A DNA stretch of 64,000 nt from Paracoccaceae bacterium (lineage in GTDB: Bacteria > Pseudomonadota > Alphaproteobacteria > Rhodobacterales > Rhodobacteraceae): NCBI GenBank assembly GCA_050302475.1, contig JBNLBF010000008.1, forward strand, positions 64,121 through 128,120, read 5' to 3'. Positions 35,306-47,401 of this stretch are shown here, piece after piece. How positions within the stretch are numbered: position 1 is the stretch's first letter; each line of letters opens with the position of its first letter. The position numbers and the translations under genes are program-made. The notes under the pieces were generated by a model. That model had not been told where the DNA came from. It did no database searches and saw only the letters and a program-made list of their open reading frames with translations.

Positions 35306-35350
35306 TCGGCCCGCTTGTGGGTTGCGCGAAAATGGGTATATCTCGCGCCC

Positions 35351-36013
35351 ATGTCAGAACAAGAAACACCACATCGCAATTTCTATGGCCGCCGGATCGC
35401 CAAGCCGCTGAAAAAGGCGCAGGCGTTTCATATGGAAAACACGCTTCCCGGAATTGCGGTTGATCTAAATGCGCCCGTTAGCGAGGGTGAGCACTGGCTG
35501 GAAATCGGCTTTGGCGGAGGTGAACATACGCTCCACATGGCCGCGACCTACCCAGATGTGACGATCATTGGGGCGGAGGCGTTTATCAATGGCGTCGCCA
35601 AAATCGTTTCGCGCATTGGCGAGGGGGACGTTCAGAATATCCGTATCCATTTCGGTGATGCGCGGGATTTACTGGAGGTGATCCCGGATGCCTCGCTGGA
35701 AAAGGTGTTTCTGCTCTATCCCGACCCATGGCCCAAAACCCGGCACCACCGCCGCCGCTTTGTGACCCCAGAAAATATCGACCAGATCGCCCGGATCCTG
35801 AAACCGGGGGCAGAGTTCCGGATCGCCACCGACATCGAAGATTATGTACGTCAGACGATGGAAGTGATGACCCCGCGTGAAGATTTCATCTGGACCGCAG
35901 AACGCCCGGCGGATTGGCGGATGCCCTGGTCCGACTGGACCCGTACACGATACGAGGCGAAAGCGATACGCGAGGGGCGCACCCCAAATTATCTGACGTT
36001 CCAGCGGGTCTGA
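35351..36013 (+). CDS. trmB: tRNA (guanine46-N7)-methyltransferase
   Basis: SAM-dependent MTase (EIGFGGGEH...LYPDPWPK). Start ATG 35351. Downstream of metK as in many alphaproteobacteria. Confidence 0.9.
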   Translation: MSEQETPHRNFYGRRIAKPLKKAQAFHMENTLPGIAVDLNAPVSEGEHWLEIGFGGGEHTLHMAATYPDVTIIGAEAFINGVAKIVSRIGEGDVQNIRIHFGDARDLLEVIPDASLEKVFLLYPDPWPKTRHHRRRFVTPENIDQIARILKPGAEFRIATDIEDYVRQTMEVMTPREDFIWTAERPADWRMPWSDWTRTRYEAKAIREGRTPNYLTFQRV

Positions 36014-38098
36014 TCACTCGTCCCACGCGCCAATTCTGACCTCTCGCTCTGCGGGATAATCAGCGCATTGCGTTGACGCCCAGAACGTCATTCGCGAGTC
36101 AAAGAACATGTTTTGCCAATCATCGCCGTATGGCCCTAACTCGTCCGGTCGAATTTGTTGTGACGTCAGCCACATCCTATGCATCCATGGGAATTCAAAC
36201 CGCACGGGCGTAGGCGTGTAATAAAACGTCTTTGTAGTTCCGGCTGGTGCCGAACGCATGTCGTCCAGAGCACTGCTATCACCCGCATAGAGTCGCGCCT
36301 CGTAATCCATCTCAGGCATTTCCGTTTGGAAATTGATATTCGGTCCCATCCATGATCGTGCCTCAAAATGGTTCCGGAAAGTTGTTCCAAAGAATAGCGA
36401 ACACGTGGGATGGTTATAGTCCGCTGGAATCTGCACGCCGGTCCGCGTAACCTCAACCGCCATAAACGGCAGCGTCGTGATGGCCCGTTTCGCGGGTTTT
36501 ACGATCAGCTGCGGCCACGGACATAGCGGTTCGCGACCATGTGCGTGTGCCTCGGTCGGGTCCACACATCCTGGGGCCACGGATTCTCGTTTCAACTCGT
36601 CGCCGAAATAGCTGATGGTTTCGCGGATAAGATCCTCGCACGGGCCGATGCAGGGAATTCCGGTTTGGCTGGAGATTTGTTCGACCGCCAATTCGGTGGC
36701 GTAATCAATACCTTTGTCCACCAGCTCGTTGTAGCTAGGGATGGTTGGCGGCAGACCCAGCGCCGTCGCACCGGTCTGCACGGCGATTTTCGCGATGGCA
36801 CCGCAGACGGCATCGTCGCCCAATTCACCCGCGATCAGCTTACAGGACTGACCGAAGACCGTGTATTCGACCAGAAATTTTGCGGCCAAATCCATCAGGT
36901 TGCCATACTGATCCCCCAGCCAATCGAAGCTTTCCAGCGACCAATCCAAAAACTCACCAAACGTTTCGACCTTGCCGTCACCCACGCCACGGTAAGGTTC
37001 AGGGCAAAGCTCGCTGCCGATCGGGAATTGTGCGGCGACTTCGGGAATAATATTGTCCTCGTGACCAGTCACAACCACGCATCCCCACCGAGAATGACGC
37101 TCTAGATACGGGATCTCATATTCCGTGATCCGCACGTCAAACAGCGGCAGCGGATCGAGACCGCCCAGAAACTCCTTGTCCAAATCAAAATCCGGCGGCG
37201 ACACACCGTCATTGGCATAAAACACCTTCATGACGTTCGAGGGGGTTGCATAAAGCCGCATATCCTCGACGGACCGCAACGGGATCGCGCGGATATAGAA
37301 ACTGTCCGGCACGGAGCCGCGACCAATGGCAGTATAATCCGCATAGACTTCGTCAAAATCGAGGAGGATTTTTCCCGTTGGTAGAGGTTGGATGTCGGCA
37401 CTAACTAACCCCGGAAAATCAAGCGTGGTTTCATTGGCACGAAATGCCGGAAACGGGCGGGCCGAGATTTGCAGGATCACGGCGGTTGCCTCGGGAATGT
37501 CAGACGCATCCCAGATAAATTGGTTGCTTTGCGTAACCGCATTAGGCCCAAGGTAAATCGACGCATCGGACGTAAACTGACAAGCCGTATCCAGACAGGC
37601 GGTCAGTGTCGCACCGGAATACAACAGATACGGAAACTGATCGCGGCCCAGCAGGAACAATGGCGGCTCTTCTGCAACATCGGTTACGGGTGGCCGTTGG
37701 ACTGGCACGTCGGCACGTTCTGGCGCAGCGGTATCTGTGGGGATCGGGGTTTCGACAACCACGGGCGGCGGGGCCACAGCGTTATTCACACAACTGATCT
37801 CTGCAAAGGCAGCGCATTGCGTGCCTTCGCACAATTTGCCATCGCCAAAGATCAGGCTGACCACACCACGCGCACCGGCCCGCGGATCGGGTGTAAACTC
37901 CCCTGCCTGATCAAAGCCAAGCTCCTGACAGAACAGGTCAGCGGCGGGTTTGCCGCATTCAGCATTTTCATGTTTGCAGAAATTCAGCGCATAGCCGCGC
38001 ATTATTGGATTGGGATATTGCCCGGTCTGTGTCGTCGGTTGCGCGATGCCGAATGACGCCCAGAGTGAAATGAAAAGAGTTGAAATTAACAAACGCAT
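36014..38098 (-). CDS. large secreted Cys-rich hypothetical protein
   Basis: 694 aa. Signal peptide MRLLISTLFISLWASFGIAQP, N-terminal Cys-rich module, Pro-rich linker, ~500-aa C-terminal region without recognisable motifs. Stop abuts trmB stop. Confidence 0.5.
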   Translation of the reverse strand: MRLLISTLFISLWASFGIAQPTTQTGQYPNPIMRGYALNFCKHENAECGKPAADLFCQELGFDQAGEFTPDPRAGARGVVSLIFGDGKLCEGTQCAAFAEISCVNNAVAPPPVVVETPIPTDTAAPERADVPVQRPPVTDVAEEPPLFLLGRDQFPYLLYSGATLTACLDTACQFTSDASIYLGPNAVTQSNQFIWDASDIPEATAVILQISARPFPAFRANETTLDFPGLVSADIQPLPTGKILLDFDEVYADYTAIGRGSVPDSFYIRAIPLRSVEDMRLYATPSNVMKVFYANDGVSPPDFDLDKEFLGGLDPLPLFDVRITEYEIPYLERHSRWGCVVVTGHEDNIIPEVAAQFPIGSELCPEPYRGVGDGKVETFGEFLDWSLESFDWLGDQYGNLMDLAAKFLVEYTVFGQSCKLIAGELGDDAVCGAIAKIAVQTGATALGLPPTIPSYNELVDKGIDYATELAVEQISSQTGIPCIGPCEDLIRETISYFGDELKRESVAPGCVDPTEAHAHGREPLCPWPQLIVKPAKRAITTLPFMAVEVTRTGVQIPADYNHPTCSLFFGTTFRNHFEARSWMGPNINFQTEMPEMDYEARLYAGDSSALDDMRSAPAGTTKTFYYTPTPVRFEFPWMHRMWLTSQQIRPDELGPYGDDWQNMFFDSRMTFWASTQCADYPAEREVRIGAWDE

Positions 38099-38254
38099 AG
38101 TGATGCCCTCCCCCAGGGATCAGATTTCGTATCATATCAACGATTCAGCCGTCGGTGCGAAAAATCACCGTGATATGTAGGCCAACGACGGATGCGAATC
38201 TTTGAAAACCGTGCTAGGCTGTCAGGACAACCTCACCAACCGAGCGCTGACGAC

Positions 38255-38635
38255 ATGGGAATTCGCCTGATCGACGCCGCCGATGAGAGTCATGAGTTCA
38301 AAGCAAGTTTCTGGCATTGGCGCGCGATTGTAGAAGTCATTTTGAAGTTGAAAGTCCTTCCTGACGGGAAGGTGGAATTCCTTGCGGCCCCTTATTCCGG
38401 TCATCTGTCGCAGGACGAAGCCCAGCAGGTTGCGAAGGCGCTGCGTAATAACACCCTGGAGGATCTGGAACCCGGCGAGCACATGCTGATGAACGGTAAA
38501 CATGTCAATGTACCCGCCAACGACCACATCCATAAATCGCCCGAGCGCAAACATCTGAACTACGCGCTGAGCCGCGAGGAACTGGAAGAGTTTGCGGATT
38601 ATTGCGAGCGTTGTGGCGGGTTCAAGGTTGAATAG
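38255..38635 (+). CDS. hypothetical protein
   Basis: 126 aa from ATG 38255. No motif recognised (C-terminal CERCGG). Confidence 0.35.
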   Translation: MGIRLIDAADESHEFKASFWHWRAIVEVILKLKVLPDGKVEFLAAPYSGHLSQDEAQQVAKALRNNTLEDLEPGEHMLMNGKHVNVPANDHIHKSPERKHLNYALSREELEEFADYCERCGGFKVE

Positions 38636-38719: not shown

Positions 38720-40069
38720 ATGTCCAGCCACGGTACACCACGTCCGATGACGTCGCATAAATGCGGCCCGCTGAAAGGCGTTGCGCATGTGCCGGGGGAC
38801 AAATCGATTTCTCACCGCTCCTTGATTTTGGGTGCTTTGTCCGTGGGGCGGACCCATGTGACCGGGCTACTGGAGGGGACCGACGTTCTGGACACCGCCA
38901 AGGCAATGCAGGCCTTTGGGGCCGAGGTGAACCGGCTGGGTGACGGTGAGTGGGAAGTTTACGGCGTTGGGGTCGGCGGCTTTGGCGAGCCGGACAATGT
39001 GATTGACTACGGCAATTCCGGCACAGGTGTGCGGTTGGTGATGGGGGCGGCGGCGACCACACCGATTACGGTGACCTATACCGGTGATGCCAGCCTGCGG
39101 TCGCGGCCCATGGCGCGGATTACGGACCCGATTGCACTGTTTGGTGCGCGGTCATACGGCCGACAGGGTGGGCGTTTGCCAATGACGGTGATCGGGACAG
39201 GGGAACCTGTACCTGTGCGTTATGTGTCGCCCGTGCCGTCCGCGCAGGTGAAATCGGCGGTGCTGCTGGCGGGGCTGAATGCGCCGGGGCAAACAGTTGT
39301 GATCGAAAAGGAAGCGACGCGGGATCATACCGAACGGATGCTGGCCGGTTTCGGGGCAGAGATCACGACGGAGATCACCGACGAAGGCCGCGTGATCACG
39401 TTGACTGGTCAACCGGAGTTGACCGCACAGACCATTACCGTGCCGCGCGATCCCTCCTCGGCCGCGTTTCCGGTGGCGGCGGCCTTGCTGGCCGAAGGGT
39501 CGGAGGTTCTGGTGCCGAATATCGGGCAGAACCCGACGCGGAACGGGCTTTACATCACGCTCAAAGAAATGGGCGCGGATATTACGTTCGAAAACGAACG
39601 GCTGGAAGGCGGCGAGCCGATTGCGGACCTCCGCGTGAAATACGGGCCGTTGAAGGGGGTGACTGTGCCGCCGGAACGGGCTGCCTCCATGATCGACGAA
39701 TTCCCGATCTTGTCGGCGATTGCGGCAACGGCTGAGGGCACGACCGTGATGCTGGGAGTCAAGGAACTGCGCGTCAAAGAATCCGACCGCATCGATGCCA
39801 TGGCGCGTGGACTGGAAGCCAACGGCGTGACCATCGAGGAAACCGAGGACACCTTCACCGTCCACGGCATGGGCCAAGGCAACGTCCCGGGCGGAGGCAC
39901 ATGCGAAACGCATCTGGACCACCGCATCGCGATGAGCTTCATGTGTCTGGGCATGGCCACGCAAAAGCCGGTGAAAATCGACGATGCCGGACCGATTGAA
40001 ACCTCTTTCCCGATTTTTGTACCGTTGATGGAAGAGCTGGGTGCGAAATTTCGGAAAGAGAATGGATGA
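38720..40069 (+). CDS. aroA: 3-phosphoshikimate 1-carboxyvinyltransferase (EPSP synthase)
   Basis: 449 aa. [23 protein letters not shown]..., full-length AroA similarity. Confidence 0.95.
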
Positions 40070-40464
40070 GTGCGACCTACTTCGGAACATGGGAACTGAT
40101 CCCCGAACTTTGCCACTATTCCAAAGGCAAAGCGCCCGATGCTGCGCTCTATCAGATTGACGATGAAGGCGATCGTATCGCATTTACCGTGACATGGACC
40201 GCTGACGGGCATGAACAATCCGTCAGCTTTGCCCCGCTCGCTGATGGCACGATGGAAGAAGCCGAGGTCAACATGCCTGCGCACCGGATCATTCCAGTCG
40301 GCGACGATCAGCTGGATGGCGAAGCATTTATTGAGGATCACCTCGTTGCCTATGCGTCGCGAAAGGTCAGTGCCGACGGGAAGCTTTTGTCAGTCTTGCA
40401 GATCAACGGCGTGGGGTCCGAACATGAGCACCGGATTTTTCAGGTTTACAGGCGGAAGGGCTAG
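40066..40464 (+). CDS. hypothetical protein translationally coupled to aroA
   Basis: 132 aa. ATG overlaps aroA stop (ATGA). No recognised domain. Confidence 0.45.
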
Positions 40465-40514: not shown

Positions 40515-41132
40515 ATGGTTTATCACATAGCTGGTAGCAACAGCGATGACAGTGTCCCCCTGAAACATGAGGAAATCCTGAATCCCATTGACGGAGACGT
40601 ATCAAAGATCACGGTGATCGACACGTCGAGAGATGGCGGCAGGATCGCTAGTTTTTCTACGGGGTATAGTGGCCGGGCGATTGATCCCACGCATATGCCA
40701 ACCAGAATGCGCCGCAAAGGGAACACGGGATTACCGTTGCATAAAGTGCACGAAATCTGGGGAGGTGGATTGCTCGTCAGCGATACATTTCGAAATATTG
40801 TCGAACGCTTTGAACCGGATGTGCACCAGTTCTTTCCCATCGCGATCGAACTACGCGGCAAAGTCATTTTCGAACGGTTCTATTTCCACATATGCAACAG
40901 ATTGGATACGCTGGCGAAAGACAAATGTGTACCGCCGGTTGAAGTGGGTAAATTATATATGCCTGCGTATGACGGGAATGATAAGGTGATATTTGATACT
41001 GCTGCGATTGGTGGTCATCATTTTTGGAACGACAAGTTTAGTCTCGGAAGATATGTGAGCAACCAAGCGTTTTCTGCATTGAAAGATGCAAATCTGACCG
41101 GTCTTGGTTACGAGTTTTACGAGCAGACGTAG
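40515..41132 (+). CDS. hypothetical protein (low GC; possibly immunity-protein-like)
   Basis: 205 aa, clearly AT-richer than flanks. No catalytic motif. Architecture (GGGLLVSDTFRNIVERFEP..FFPIAIE...) reminiscent of some polymorphic-toxin immunity families but unverified. Confidence 0.4.
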   Translation: MVYHIAGSNSDDSVPLKHEEILNPIDGDVSKITVIDTSRDGGRIASFSTGYSGRAIDPTHMPTRMRRKGNTGLPLHKVHEIWGGGLLVSDTFRNIVERFEPDVHQFFPIAIELRGKVIFERFYFHICNRLDTLAKDKCVPPVEVGKLYMPAYDGNDKVIFDTAAIGGHHFWNDKFSLGRYVSNQAFSALKDANLTGLGYEFYEQT

Positions 41133-47218: not shown

Positions 47219-47290
47219 GGAGGTGTAGCTGACGGTGCGATCAGCGTGGCCATCACGCTGTTGCCGGTTCGAATCCGGTCATCTTCGCCA
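47219..47290 (+). other. 72-nt tRNA-like element ending in CCA (non-canonical fold, likely pseudo-tRNA)
   Basis: Canonical T-arm GCCGGTTCGAATCCGGT. 7-bp acceptor pairing GGAGGTG/CATCTTC with discriminator G and CCA. But no canonical D/anticodon arms can be drawn. Confidence 0.35.
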
Positions 47291-47360
47291 TGAGTAGCTC
47301 ATTAGGTAGAGCAACAGACTTCTAATCTGTGGGTAGCGGGTTCGACTCCCGCCTCAACTG
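47288..47360 (+). tRNA. tRNA-Arg(TCT)-like gene with defective 5' acceptor strand (possible truncated or pseudo-tRNA)
   Basis: Perfect D-arm GCTCATTAGGTAGAGC. Anticodon stem-loop ACAGA-CTTCTAA-TCTGT (anticodon TCT at 47321-47323). T-arm GCGGGTTCGACTCCCGC. Acceptor 3' strand CTCAACT. Nucleotides 1-3 (CCA) cannot pair with 70-72. Confidence 0.4.
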
Positions 47361-47376
47361 GTACGCGGTAACGCAC

Positions 47377-47401
47377 GCAGGTTCGACTCCTGCATAACGC
47401 C
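47377..47401 (+). other. third tandem tRNA 3'-fragment-like motif (T-arm plus 7-nt acceptor-like tail)
   Basis: GCAGGTTCGACTCCTGC-ATAACGC-C. No matching 5' half found. Confidence 0.3.

What the first reader, a model, noticed from the sequence alone, without database searches (positions are those of the whole stretch)
36014..38098. 694-aa secreted, Cys-rich orphan protein between trmB and aroA
- It has a clear Sec signal peptide.
- The N-terminal ~110 aa carry 8 Cys in a pattern suggesting a disulfide-knotted binding module (NFCKHENAECGK..LFCQELGF...KLCEGTQCAAFAEISC).
- A Pro-rich linker (APPPVVVETPIPTDTAAPERADVPVQRPPVTD) follows, then a ~500-aa domain in which I recognise no catalytic signature.
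- Its stop abuts the trmB stop with zero spacer.
- It is followed divergently by another unknown 126-aa ORF.
- It could be a surface adhesin or carbohydrate-binding protein, or a novel hydrolase.
Basis: partly seen in the sequence, partly recalled or inferred. Interest (0 to 1): 0.55.

Follow-up and report, generated by a model that had tools for sequence, protein, structure and literature searches.

The report
Exported modular envelope protein, two undescribed domains
This is a real gene for an exported, disulfide-rich, multi-domain bacterial envelope protein built from two widespread protein modules that no database has yet described; it is not a true orphan, and its function remains unproven.

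Summary
The 694-aa ORF (36014..38098, minus strand) is real. It has an RBS and a signal peptide, and dN/dS is about 0.11 against a syntenic 71%-identical ortholog.

- The N-terminal module has 6 Cys, not 8. The protein has 18 in total, in positions that suggest nine disulfides.
- "Orphan" holds only for curated libraries. Pfam, NCBIfam, PHROGs, PADLOC and PDB sequences give nothing.

An exhaustive profile search finds 2,750 related 50%-identity clusters. They split the protein into two mobile units.

1. A ~75-aa six-Cys module:
- It occurs in 1-5 tandem copies, or next to WSC, PAN, FG-GAP and MopE-type metal-binding modules.
- It also sits inside a 2,103-aa Sedimenticola protein built of surface-type domains.
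- It shows faint, sub-threshold similarity to YecR.

2. A ~400-aa C-terminal "head":
- It consists of β strands, a five-helix bundle and a β-sandwich.
- It carries an invariant G-x-P-P-x-x-P loop.
- In ~1,000-aa relatives (one named Anaerolineales) it follows a membrane anchor, Big_7 and LysM.

Best reading: a tethered envelope-binding or scaffold protein (N-module, Pro-rich spacer, Ig stalk, head). A new cell-wall-active enzyme is the main rival. Interest is moderate.

The parts
36014..38098 (-). Complete gene, 694 codons plus the TGA stop (36014-36016)
   Evidence: The ORF is listed. The identical protein P0001 is in an NCBI assembly. dN/dS is 0.11 against the L039 ortholog.
38106..38114 (-). 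Shine-Dalgarno-like GGGGGAGGG, 7 nt upstream of the ATG
   Evidence: Read directly from the sequence. A G-rich block is conserved in the L039 ortholog.
38042..38098 (-). Sec signal peptide, residues 1-19 (MRLLISTLFISLWASFGIA, predicted cleavage before Q20); no lipobox
   Evidence: This is the only hydrophobic 19-mer in the protein. All full-length close homologs have an equivalent N-terminus. No dedicated signal-peptide predictor was available.
37781..38026 (-). Six-Cys α/β module, residues 25-106 (C41, C48, C57, C90, C95, C103). It belongs to an undescribed mobile domain family.
   Evidence: Cys positions are. Five of the six Cys are invariant across 42 instances and the sixth (C48) is conserved in at least 90% (alignment A2). 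The module occurs in 1-5 tandem copies in other proteins. AF2 gives a ββαββ layout with pLDDT about 75-87. No Pfam hit reaches threshold; 10 of 42 instances give sub-threshold YecR hits, and hhalign against E. coli YecR gives 51% probability.
37622..37780 (-). Pro-rich spacer, residues 107-159
   Evidence: 22% Pro in the query. Relatives have linkers of 37-136 aa with 16-38% Pro. pLDDT is below 50.
37208..37621 (-). Ig-like β-sandwich, residues 160-297, with a C168-C173 pair and the WQVS..PFP and YVR..P...PSN motifs
36017..37207 (-). Conserved C-terminal head, residues 298-694: β strands, a five-helix bundle and a β-sandwich, with 10 Cys
   Evidence: The profile core (positions ~285-705) recurs at the C-terminus of ~1,000-aa proteins. 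AF2 model pLDDT is 72. No PDB fold or sequence counterpart was found beyond β-sandwiches.
36581..36961 (-). Helical bundle, residues 380-506, containing C419, C432, C483 and C487
   Evidence: Helices are predicted in both models.
36737..36757 (-). G-L-P-P-T-I-P (residues 448-454), the family's invariant G-x-P-P-x-x-P loop
   Evidence: G, P, P and P are invariant or about 99% conserved in A1, A3, A7 and the 84-sequence set.
36521..36550 (-). A-H-A-H-G-R-E-P-L-C loop (residues 517-526), inside the C511...C526 segment
   Evidence: A517 95%, H518 88%, G521 96%, E523 93%, P524 92%, C526 95% over 84 sequences. The loop is absent in the P0014/P0015 sub-branch.
36029..36520 (-). C-terminal β-sandwich, residues 527-690, with R552, D660-W661 and the C566...C678 pair
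38255..38635 (+). Divergent 126-aa ORF of unknown function. It is a neighbour, not a family-wide partner.
   Evidence: dN/dS is 0.08 against L039. It has no Pfam, NCBIfam, PHROGs or PADLOC hit. It lies next to the gene only in L001 and L039.

Best explanation
The gene encodes a Sec-exported, disulfide-stabilised modular protein of the cell envelope.

Shown:
- A cleavable-looking signal peptide with no lipobox.
- A ~75-aa six-Cys α/β module.
- A ~50-aa Pro-rich, predicted-disordered spacer.
- One Ig-like β-sandwich.
- A ~400-aa conserved head (β strands, a five-helix bundle and a β-sandwich).
- The N-module and the head are independent evolutionary units, each with many homologs and no curated family.

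Inferred:
- The head is the constant functional end, and the N-terminal part is an exchangeable anchoring or targeting device. In ~1,000-aa relatives (one named Anaerolineales) the same head hangs on a membrane anchor + Big_7 + LysM (a peptidoglycan-binding module) or on an F5/8-type-C lectin module. In Alphaproteobacteria it hangs on the six-Cys module.
- I therefore propose a tether. The six-Cys module binds an envelope ligand (glycan or protein). The Pro-rich spacer and the Ig domain act as an extended stalk. The rigid, disulfide-stapled head binds a second envelope or extracellular ligand, most likely a cell-wall-associated polymer.
- This is an adhesin- or scaffold-type role rather than catalysis. 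The strictly invariant residues are structural types (Gly, Pro, Trp, Cys, Ala), and all 18 Cys appear to be paired.
For: Real gene: homologs, dN/dS 0.11 and conserved synteny.

Export and oxidising compartment: signal peptide. The protein has 18 Cys in local clusters of 6, 2, 2, 4, 2 and 2, and most close homologs also have 18.

Modularity: of the 160 proteins in hand, 79 have the head without the N-module, 20 have the N-module plus the head, and 37 have 1-5 N-modules alone.

N-module partners: WSC, PAN_4, FG-GAP, MopE. It also occurs inside a 2,103-aa protein with CarboxypepD_reg, Big_7, CARDB, SpaA-like and PPC domains.

Head partners: Big_7 in 18 of 50 and LysM in 17 of 50 long proteins, and F5/8-type-C in one. 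One such protein is named as Anaerolineales.

Non-catalytic lean:
- The invariant columns are G448, P450, P451, P454, W393, A439 and G463.
- H518 and E523 are 88-93% conserved and do not reach 90% in the 50 long forms.
- That loop is missing from the P0014/P0015 branch.
- No enzyme fold or family was detected.

Accessory character: patchy distribution limited to MAGs of Hyphomicrobiales and Rhodobacteraceae, two paralogs in one MAG (L010 and L012), faster evolution than the adjacent trmB (71% vs 90% amino-acid identity), and no conserved neighbours.
Against: - No ligand, localisation or activity was tested, so the function rests on domain-fusion logic only.
- The AF2 models are of moderate quality (pLDDT 67 and 72, pTM 0.36 and 0.46, built from 15-23 sequences). 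The most conserved loop is modelled with pLDDT below 50, so 'no fold match' for the head is weak evidence.
- A conserved set of polar residues (N288, H518, E523, R552, D660) could form an active or metal-binding site.
- LysM and F5/8-type-C partners are typical of enzymes as well as of binders.
- In a diderm, a Sec signal alone places the protein in the periplasm. Surface exposure is not shown.
Confidence: 0.42

Rival explanations
1. The head is a new kind of cell-wall- or polysaccharide-active enzyme (hydrolase, lyase or amidase). Exchangeable substrate-binding modules (the six-Cys module, LysM, F5/8-type-C) deliver it to its substrate. H518, E523, D660 and R552 would form the catalytic or metal site.
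For: - The fusion partners LysM and F5/8-type-C are classic companions of cell-wall hydrolases and glycosidases (established knowledge; partners found).
- Polar residues N288, H518, E523, R552 and D660 are 88-93% conserved over 84 diverse sequences.
- H359 and E364 of alignment A3 (H518 and E523 in the full-length protein) are at least 90% conserved.
Against: - No similarity to any enzyme family or fold.
- The strictly invariant positions are Gly, Pro, Trp and Cys, not the polar ones.
- The A-H-x-x-G-x-E-P loop is absent from a sub-branch that keeps the rest of the head.
- A small disulfide-stapled helical bundle between β-sandwiches is not a typical glycosidase or peptidase scaffold (inference).
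Confidence: 0.25
2. The protein is a YecR-like outer-membrane or flagellar-basal-body accessory. The N-module would be a YecR homolog that docks on an outer-membrane ring structure, and the rest would project into the periplasm.
For: - 10 of 42 N-module instances give sub-threshold PF13992 hits, best E 0.0016.
- hhalign of the module profile against E. coli YecR gives 51% probability over 27 columns. The motif AAD-x-x-C-x-x-x-G-[FY]-x-x-A is followed by three Cys in both.
- YecR decorates the Salmonella L-ring (PMC11756786).
- One relative lies next to motA/motB-like genes (L006).
Against: - The query itself has no YecR hit.
- The module profile finds no YecR chain in the PDB even at E <= 10.
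- There is no lipobox, whereas YecR is a lipoprotein.
- The module occurs in 1-5 tandem copies and in giant adhesin-like proteins.
- No flagellar genes flank the gene in the window or in most relatives.
Confidence: 0.08
3. The protein is a secreted antagonistic effector or pore-forming toxin: a helical bundle flanked by β domains, functionally linked to the nearby Imm11 immunity gene.
For: - An Imm11 (PF07791, E 3.8e-14) ORF lies 2.4 kb away at 40515..41132.
- The family is patchy and fast-evolving.
Against: - The Imm11 gene is not adjacent. The 126-aa ORF, aroA and a 132-aa ORF lie between, and it is on the other strand. It is also absent next to every other family member examined.
- The helices appear to be stapled by conserved Cys, which argues against pore-forming rearrangement (inference).
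- No toxin, PADLOC or PHROGs family is hit.
- No viral relatives were found.
Confidence: 0.06
4. The ORF is spurious or a decaying pseudogene.
For: - GC is slightly lower than in the flanks (0.54-0.57 vs 0.58-0.60).
- One relative is split by a frameshift in the linker (L040).
Against: - The frame is intact, with an RBS.
- dN/dS is 0.11, against thousands of homologs.
- 18 Cys and all motifs are conserved.
Confidence: 0.01

Closest known systems
LysM-anchored cell-wall proteins (PF01476 fused to an effector domain)
   Same: Same building logic: an envelope-binding module, then spacer or Ig domains, then a distal functional domain. The query's head is homologous to the C-terminal domain of Big_7+LysM proteins, one of which is named Anaerolineales.
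   Different: The query has no LysM; a six-Cys module takes its place. The head is not any known LysM-associated enzyme such as NlpC/P60, amidase, M23 or a glycosidase.
YecR lipoprotein family (PF13992), an accessory of the flagellar L-ring
   Same: A short motif (A-A-D-x-x-C-x-x-x-G-[FY]-x-x-A) followed by three Cys. There are recurrent sub-threshold HMM hits, and hhalign gives 51% probability.
   Different: The hits are below the Pfam threshold. The query has no lipobox and two extra Cys, and the module is used as a repeat in large multi-domain proteins. The YecR chains reported in solved basal-body structures (my recollection, not checked here) gave no hit to the module profile.
PAN/Apple and WSC cysteine-rich domains (PF00024, PF14295, PF01822), as in the yeast Wsc1 sensor
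   Same: Small extracytoplasmic α/β modules with one helix pinned by disulfides, which mediate protein or carbohydrate binding (PMC9024836). In Wsc1 the Cys-rich domain is likewise followed by an extended linker. The six-Cys module occurs in the same proteins as WSC and PAN_4.
Ig-like / FN3-like stalk domains of bacterial surface proteins (for example RbmA and the Big families)
   Different: The match is fold-level only (2-15% identity). No Big or FN3 Pfam model is hit by the query.
TonB-type Pro-rich periplasmic spacers
   Same: A Pro-rich segment, Lys/Pro-rich in several relatives, of variable length between two folded parts.
   Different: This is a compositional analogy only. No TonB domains are present.

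Membership tests
Sec-exported protein (signal peptidase I substrate) | N-terminal n-h-c signal peptide with small residues at -3 and -1, and no lipobox Cys at +1 | tested here: met
   MRLLISTLFISLWASFGIA|Q has R2, a hydrophobic core (mean KD 1.63 over 19 aa, 2.13 over the best 12) and G-I-A before Q20. All close homologs are alike. The check used rules and hydropathy only; no SignalP was available.
YecR-like lipoprotein (PF13992) | Score at or above the Pfam gathering threshold (27 bits) | tested here: not met
   The query has no hit. 10 of 42 module instances hit below threshold, best E 0.0016.
YecR-like lipoprotein (PF13992) | Profile-level homology to E. coli YecR | tested here: inconclusive
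   hhalign gives 51% probability, E 1.5e-4, over 27 columns. The PDB profile search found no YecR chain.
YecR-like lipoprotein (PF13992) | Lipoprotein signal peptide (lipobox with Cys +1) | tested here: not met
   E. coli YecR has LAGC. The query has FGIA-Q and no Cys before C41.
PAN/Apple or WSC cysteine-rich domains | Match to PF00024, PF14295 or PF01822 | tested here: not met
   No hit for the query or for any of 42 module instances at E <= 1. PAN_4 and WSC occur only as separate neighbouring domains in P0099 and P0151.
PAN/Apple or WSC cysteine-rich domains | β-sheet cradling one helix, with the helix tied to the sheet by two disulfides | not testable with these tools
   The AF2 secondary structure is ββαββ with C48 and C57 at the helix ends.
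LysM cell-wall-binding proteins | Presence of a LysM domain (PF01476) | tested here: not met
   LysM is absent from the query. It is present in 17 of 50 long head-containing relatives.
Ig-like β-sandwich fold | Structural superposition on Ig/FN3-type domains | tested here: met
Known enzyme families (glycoside hydrolases, peptidases, amidases, L,D-transpeptidases) | Sequence or fold match to a catalytic domain | tested here: not met
Polymorphic toxin / Imm11 immunity pair | Immunity gene immediately downstream of, and co-oriented with, a toxin domain | tested here: not met
   The Imm11 ORF is 2.4 kb away on the other strand, with three ORFs in between. No Imm11 was found in any relative's locus.

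The most novel reading that the evidence does not exclude
The ~400-aa head is a genuinely new fold with a new activity or binding specificity toward the bacterial cell wall, for example an unrecognised class of peptidoglycan- or exopolysaccharide-active protein. It would be shared by Alphaproteobacteria and Chloroflexota and delivered by interchangeable anchors. One of those anchors is the six-Cys module, a previously undescribed bacterial module that may resemble PAN or YecR.
Probability: 0.2. Interest if true: 0.6.

Novelty: new variant of a known kind. Interest (0 to 1): 0.36.

Why it matters
The locus points to two sizeable domain families that are missing from Pfam and NCBIfam.
- One is a mobile six-Cys extracytoplasmic module.
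- The other is a ~400-aa head shared between Alphaproteobacteria and ~1,000-aa LysM-bearing proteins (one named Anaerolineales).

Defining these families would annotate thousands of metagenomic proteins. If the head proves to be a cell-wall-binding or cell-wall-active domain, it would add a new component to envelope biology in poorly cultured lineages such as Hyphomicrobiales MAGs and Anaerolineales. As it stands, this is an uncharacterised family and not a mechanistic surprise.

Tried and rejected
- Curated libraries: Pfam, NCBIfam, PHROGs and PADLOC on the query and its neighbours gave nothing for the query.
- Weak recurrent hits: scanning 23 diverse head sequences against Pfam and NCBIfam at E <= 1 found no recurring family.
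- PDB by sequence: the single protein and the profiles A2 and A3 gave only noise.
- Fold searches:
  - Foldseek against the PDB found nothing at E <= 1e-3.
  - The AFDB library was unavailable.
- Guilt by association: 11 loci of relatives share no neighbouring genes.
- Neighbour as partner: the 126-aa ORF is syntenic only in the two closest relatives, so it is rejected as a partner.
- Imm11 / toxin link: rejected on position and strand.
- Phage origin: no relatives in IMG/VR with the patterns used.
- The word-index homolog search with a profile added little.
- Locus search with the broad alignments failed for lack of a conserved peptide.
- The intergenic region shows no convincing operator beyond a short conserved promoter-like block.
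Full report
**1. The observation**

The ORF at 36014..38098 on the minus strand exists. It has 694 codons and starts at the first ATG after an upstream stop. GGGGGAGGG lies 7 nt upstream of the start.

The N-terminus MRLLISTLFISLWASFGIA|QP has the layout of a Sec signal peptide. It is the only strongly hydrophobic segment in the protein, and it has no lipobox Cys. The quoted Cys-rich strings and the Pro-rich stretch are present.

The stop codon (36014-36016) directly abuts the trmB stop (36011-36013). The divergent neighbour is a genuine 126-aa gene at 38255..38635; the ORF listing extends it to 147 aa from an upstream ATG.

Two details in the finding are wrong:
- The first ~110 residues contain six Cys (41, 48, 57, 90, 95, 103), not eight.
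- The protein is not an orphan (see section 3).

The whole protein has 18 Cys in local clusters: 6, then 168/173, 340/365, 419/432/483/487, 511/526 and 566/678. That arrangement suggests nine disulfides. The pairing is an inference from sequence, not a measurement.

**2. It is a real gene**

An identical protein is recorded in an NCBI assembly. A 71%-identical ortholog sits in the same arrangement (126-aa ORF / gene / trmB) on an ENA contig.

Against that ortholog, dN/dS is about 0.11 for the gene, 0.08 for the 126-aa ORF and 0.07 for trmB. dS is saturated, so these ratios are approximate. The gene evolves faster than trmB: 71% versus 90% amino-acid identity.

**3. What it is related to**

No Pfam, NCBIfam, PHROGs or PADLOC model and no PDB sequence matches it. 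The word-indexed search of 5.8 billion proteins returned only 15 relatives, all unnamed or 'hypothetical'.

An exhaustive HMM search with their alignment against 1.84 billion cluster representatives found much more: 2,750 proteins at E <= 1e-3 and 267 at E <= 1e-30. The pattern of matched stretches splits the protein into independent units. Of the 160 proteins in hand:
- 79 carry the C-terminal head without the N-module.
- 20 carry the N-module plus the head.
- 37 carry only the N-module, in 1-5 tandem copies.

**4. The N-module (residues 25-106)**

Forty-two diverse instances give this consensus, with five Cys invariant and the sixth conserved in at least 90%:

F-x-x-P-x-x-x-G-x-x-V-D-x-C-x-x-W-G-x-x-C-G-x-P-A-A-D-x-F-C-R-x-x-G-F-x-x-A...C-x4-C-x-G-F-x-x-I-x-C

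AF2 predicts a ββαββ layout at pLDDT about 75-87.

In other proteins the module has these contexts:
- It is tandemly repeated.
- It sits beside WSC, PAN_4, FG-GAP and MopE-type modules.
- It lies inside a 2,103-aa Sedimenticola selenatireducens protein containing CarboxypepD_reg, Big_7, CARDB, SpaA-like and PPC domains.

It therefore behaves as an extracytoplasmic binding module.

Its only hint of a named relative is YecR:
- 10 of 42 instances hit PF13992 below threshold.
- hhalign against E. coli YecR gives 51% probability over 27 columns.
- However, the query itself has no hit, the PDB profile search finds no YecR chain, and the query is not a lipoprotein.

I treat YecR homology as inconclusive.

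A PAN/WSC-like fold is plausible. Those domains have one helix pinned by disulfides onto a β-sheet, as described for Wsc1 in PMC9024836. This could not be tested here.

**5. Spacer and stalk**

Residues 107-159 are 22% Pro and are modelled as disordered. All N+head relatives have an equivalent linker of 37-136 residues with 16-38% Pro, and some are Lys/Pro-rich.

**6. The head (residues ~298-694; conserved core from ~265)**

Both AF2 models give the same layout: short β strands, then five helices (about 380-506), then a β-sandwich (527-690). Their quality is pLDDT 67 and pTM 0.36 for the full model, and pLDDT 72 and pTM 0.46 for residues 160-694.

Conservation over 84 diverse sequences:
- Conserved Cys: C340, C365-P366, C432, C483, C487, C511, C526, C678.
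- The G448-x-P450-P451-x-x-P454 loop is essentially invariant.
- Other conserved positions: A517-H518-x-x-G521-x-E523-P524, R552, D660-W661 and N288.

In alignment A1 (15 sequences), which includes a divergent sub-branch lacking the head's Cys residues and the A-H-x-x-G-x-E-P loop, the head columns that stay invariant are G339, C340, W393, A439, G448, P450, P451, P454 and G463. These are residue types expected of structural positions.

**7. Fusion partners of the head**

In ~1,000-aa proteins the head is C-terminal to an N-terminal membrane anchor, Big_7 and LysM. Big_7 occurs in 18 of 50 and LysM in 17 of 50 of the long proteins scanned. One protein has an F5/8-type-C domain instead. One of these proteins is named as Anaerolineales.

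The head is therefore the constant part. It is attached to different envelope- or glycan-binding devices in different lineages.

**8. Genomic context**

In the window the gene lies among housekeeping genes in this order: lnt, metK, a LysE-family gene, trmB | gene | 126-aa ORF, aroA, a 132-aa ORF, an Imm11-family gene, cmk, rpsA. The names lnt, metK, aroA, cmk and rpsA are read from the ORF translations; only trmB and Imm11 were scanned against Pfam here, and the LysE name comes from the locus annotation.

Relatives in Rhizobiaceae, Hyphomicrobium, Bauldia, Devosiaceae and Rhodobacteraceae MAGs, and in the Anaerolineales-type contigs, share no neighbours. One MAG has two paralogs. One relative is split by a frameshift in the linker. 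No viral relatives were found.

This pattern suggests an accessory, stand-alone, fairly fast-evolving envelope protein.

**9. Mechanism**

*Shown:* export signal; many Cys in positions that suggest pairing; modular anatomy; independent mobility of the modules; the fusion partners.

*Inferred (confidence about 0.4):* the protein is a tether or scaffold.
- The six-Cys module binds one envelope ligand.
- The Pro-rich spacer and Ig domain form a stalk.
- The rigid head binds a second ligand, probably a cell-wall-associated polymer, given the LysM and lectin partners.

*Main rival (about 0.25):* the head is a new cell-wall-active enzyme that uses H518, E523, D660 and R552.

*Minor rivals:* a YecR-like outer-membrane or flagellar accessory (about 0.08), a toxin or effector (about 0.06), and a spurious ORF (about 0.01).

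**10. Verdict**

The feature is a new variant of a known kind: a modular exported envelope protein built from two domain families that curated databases lack.

Interest is moderate (0.36). The finding is useful for annotation and as a lead for envelope biology. By itself it is neither surprising nor does it resolve an open question.

Noticed in passing
window 47219-47400: tRNA-like pieces lie head-to-tail with no spacer. ARAGORN calls tRNA-Trp(CCA) at 47219-47290. The Rfam tRNA model matches the directly abutting 47291-47356 (55 bits, model positions 4-67), whose anticodon loop CTTCTAA reads as UCU (Arg) by eye. A third T-arm-like stretch (ggttcgactcctgc) follows at about 47380. This could be a tRNA gene cluster, or remnants of integration at a tRNA gene.
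   Followed up: partly
window 40515-41132 (+): A 205-aa ORF matches the Imm11 immunity-protein family (PF07791, E 3.8e-14). It lies in the lowest-GC patch of the region (0.48-0.53, against about 0.58-0.60) between aroA and cmk. No toxin gene is evident beside it. It may be an orphan immunity gene or a small island.
   Followed up: partly
window 40066-40464 (+): A 132-aa ORF whose ATG overlaps the aroA stop by 4 nt. It has no hit in Pfam, NCBIfam, PHROGs or PADLOC. The exact protein is recorded in the NCBI assembly.
   Followed up: no
window 38255-38635 (+): The divergent 126-aa neighbour is a real gene (67% identical ortholog, dN/dS 0.08) with no family assignment. It ends with a C-x-x-C motif (YCERCGGFKVE). 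It is syntenic only in the two closest relatives.
   Followed up: partly
window 38120-38175 (intergenic, read on the minus strand): Short blocks in the divergent promoter region are conserved with the 71%-identity ortholog: GGTGATT-x-TTC-x-CAC and TG-x-TAT-x-ATA. They look like a -35/-10-type promoter about 35 nt upstream of the gene. The consensus scan did not flag them.
   Followed up: partly
L040 6390-8590: A relative on a 1.1-Mb contig is split into a 183-aa ORF (N-module followed by an out-of-frame tail, = P0108) and a 529-aa ORF (P0024). A third frame carries the Pro-rich linker across the gap. The cause is a single frameshift in the linker, either a pseudogene or a long-read assembly error.
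   Followed up: yes
L030 5446-11757 (Sedimenticola selenatireducens DSM 17993): A 2,103-aa exported protein carries one copy of the six-Cys module between CarboxypepD_reg-like domains and PPC, Big_7 and CARDB domains. It was the only example found in a cultured, named strain.
   Followed up: partly
window 35315-36013 (+): The trmB ORF as listed (232 aa, TTG start) is longer than the 193/192-aa products called in the two related assemblies. The true start is probably the internal ATG (MENTLP...).
   Followed up: no
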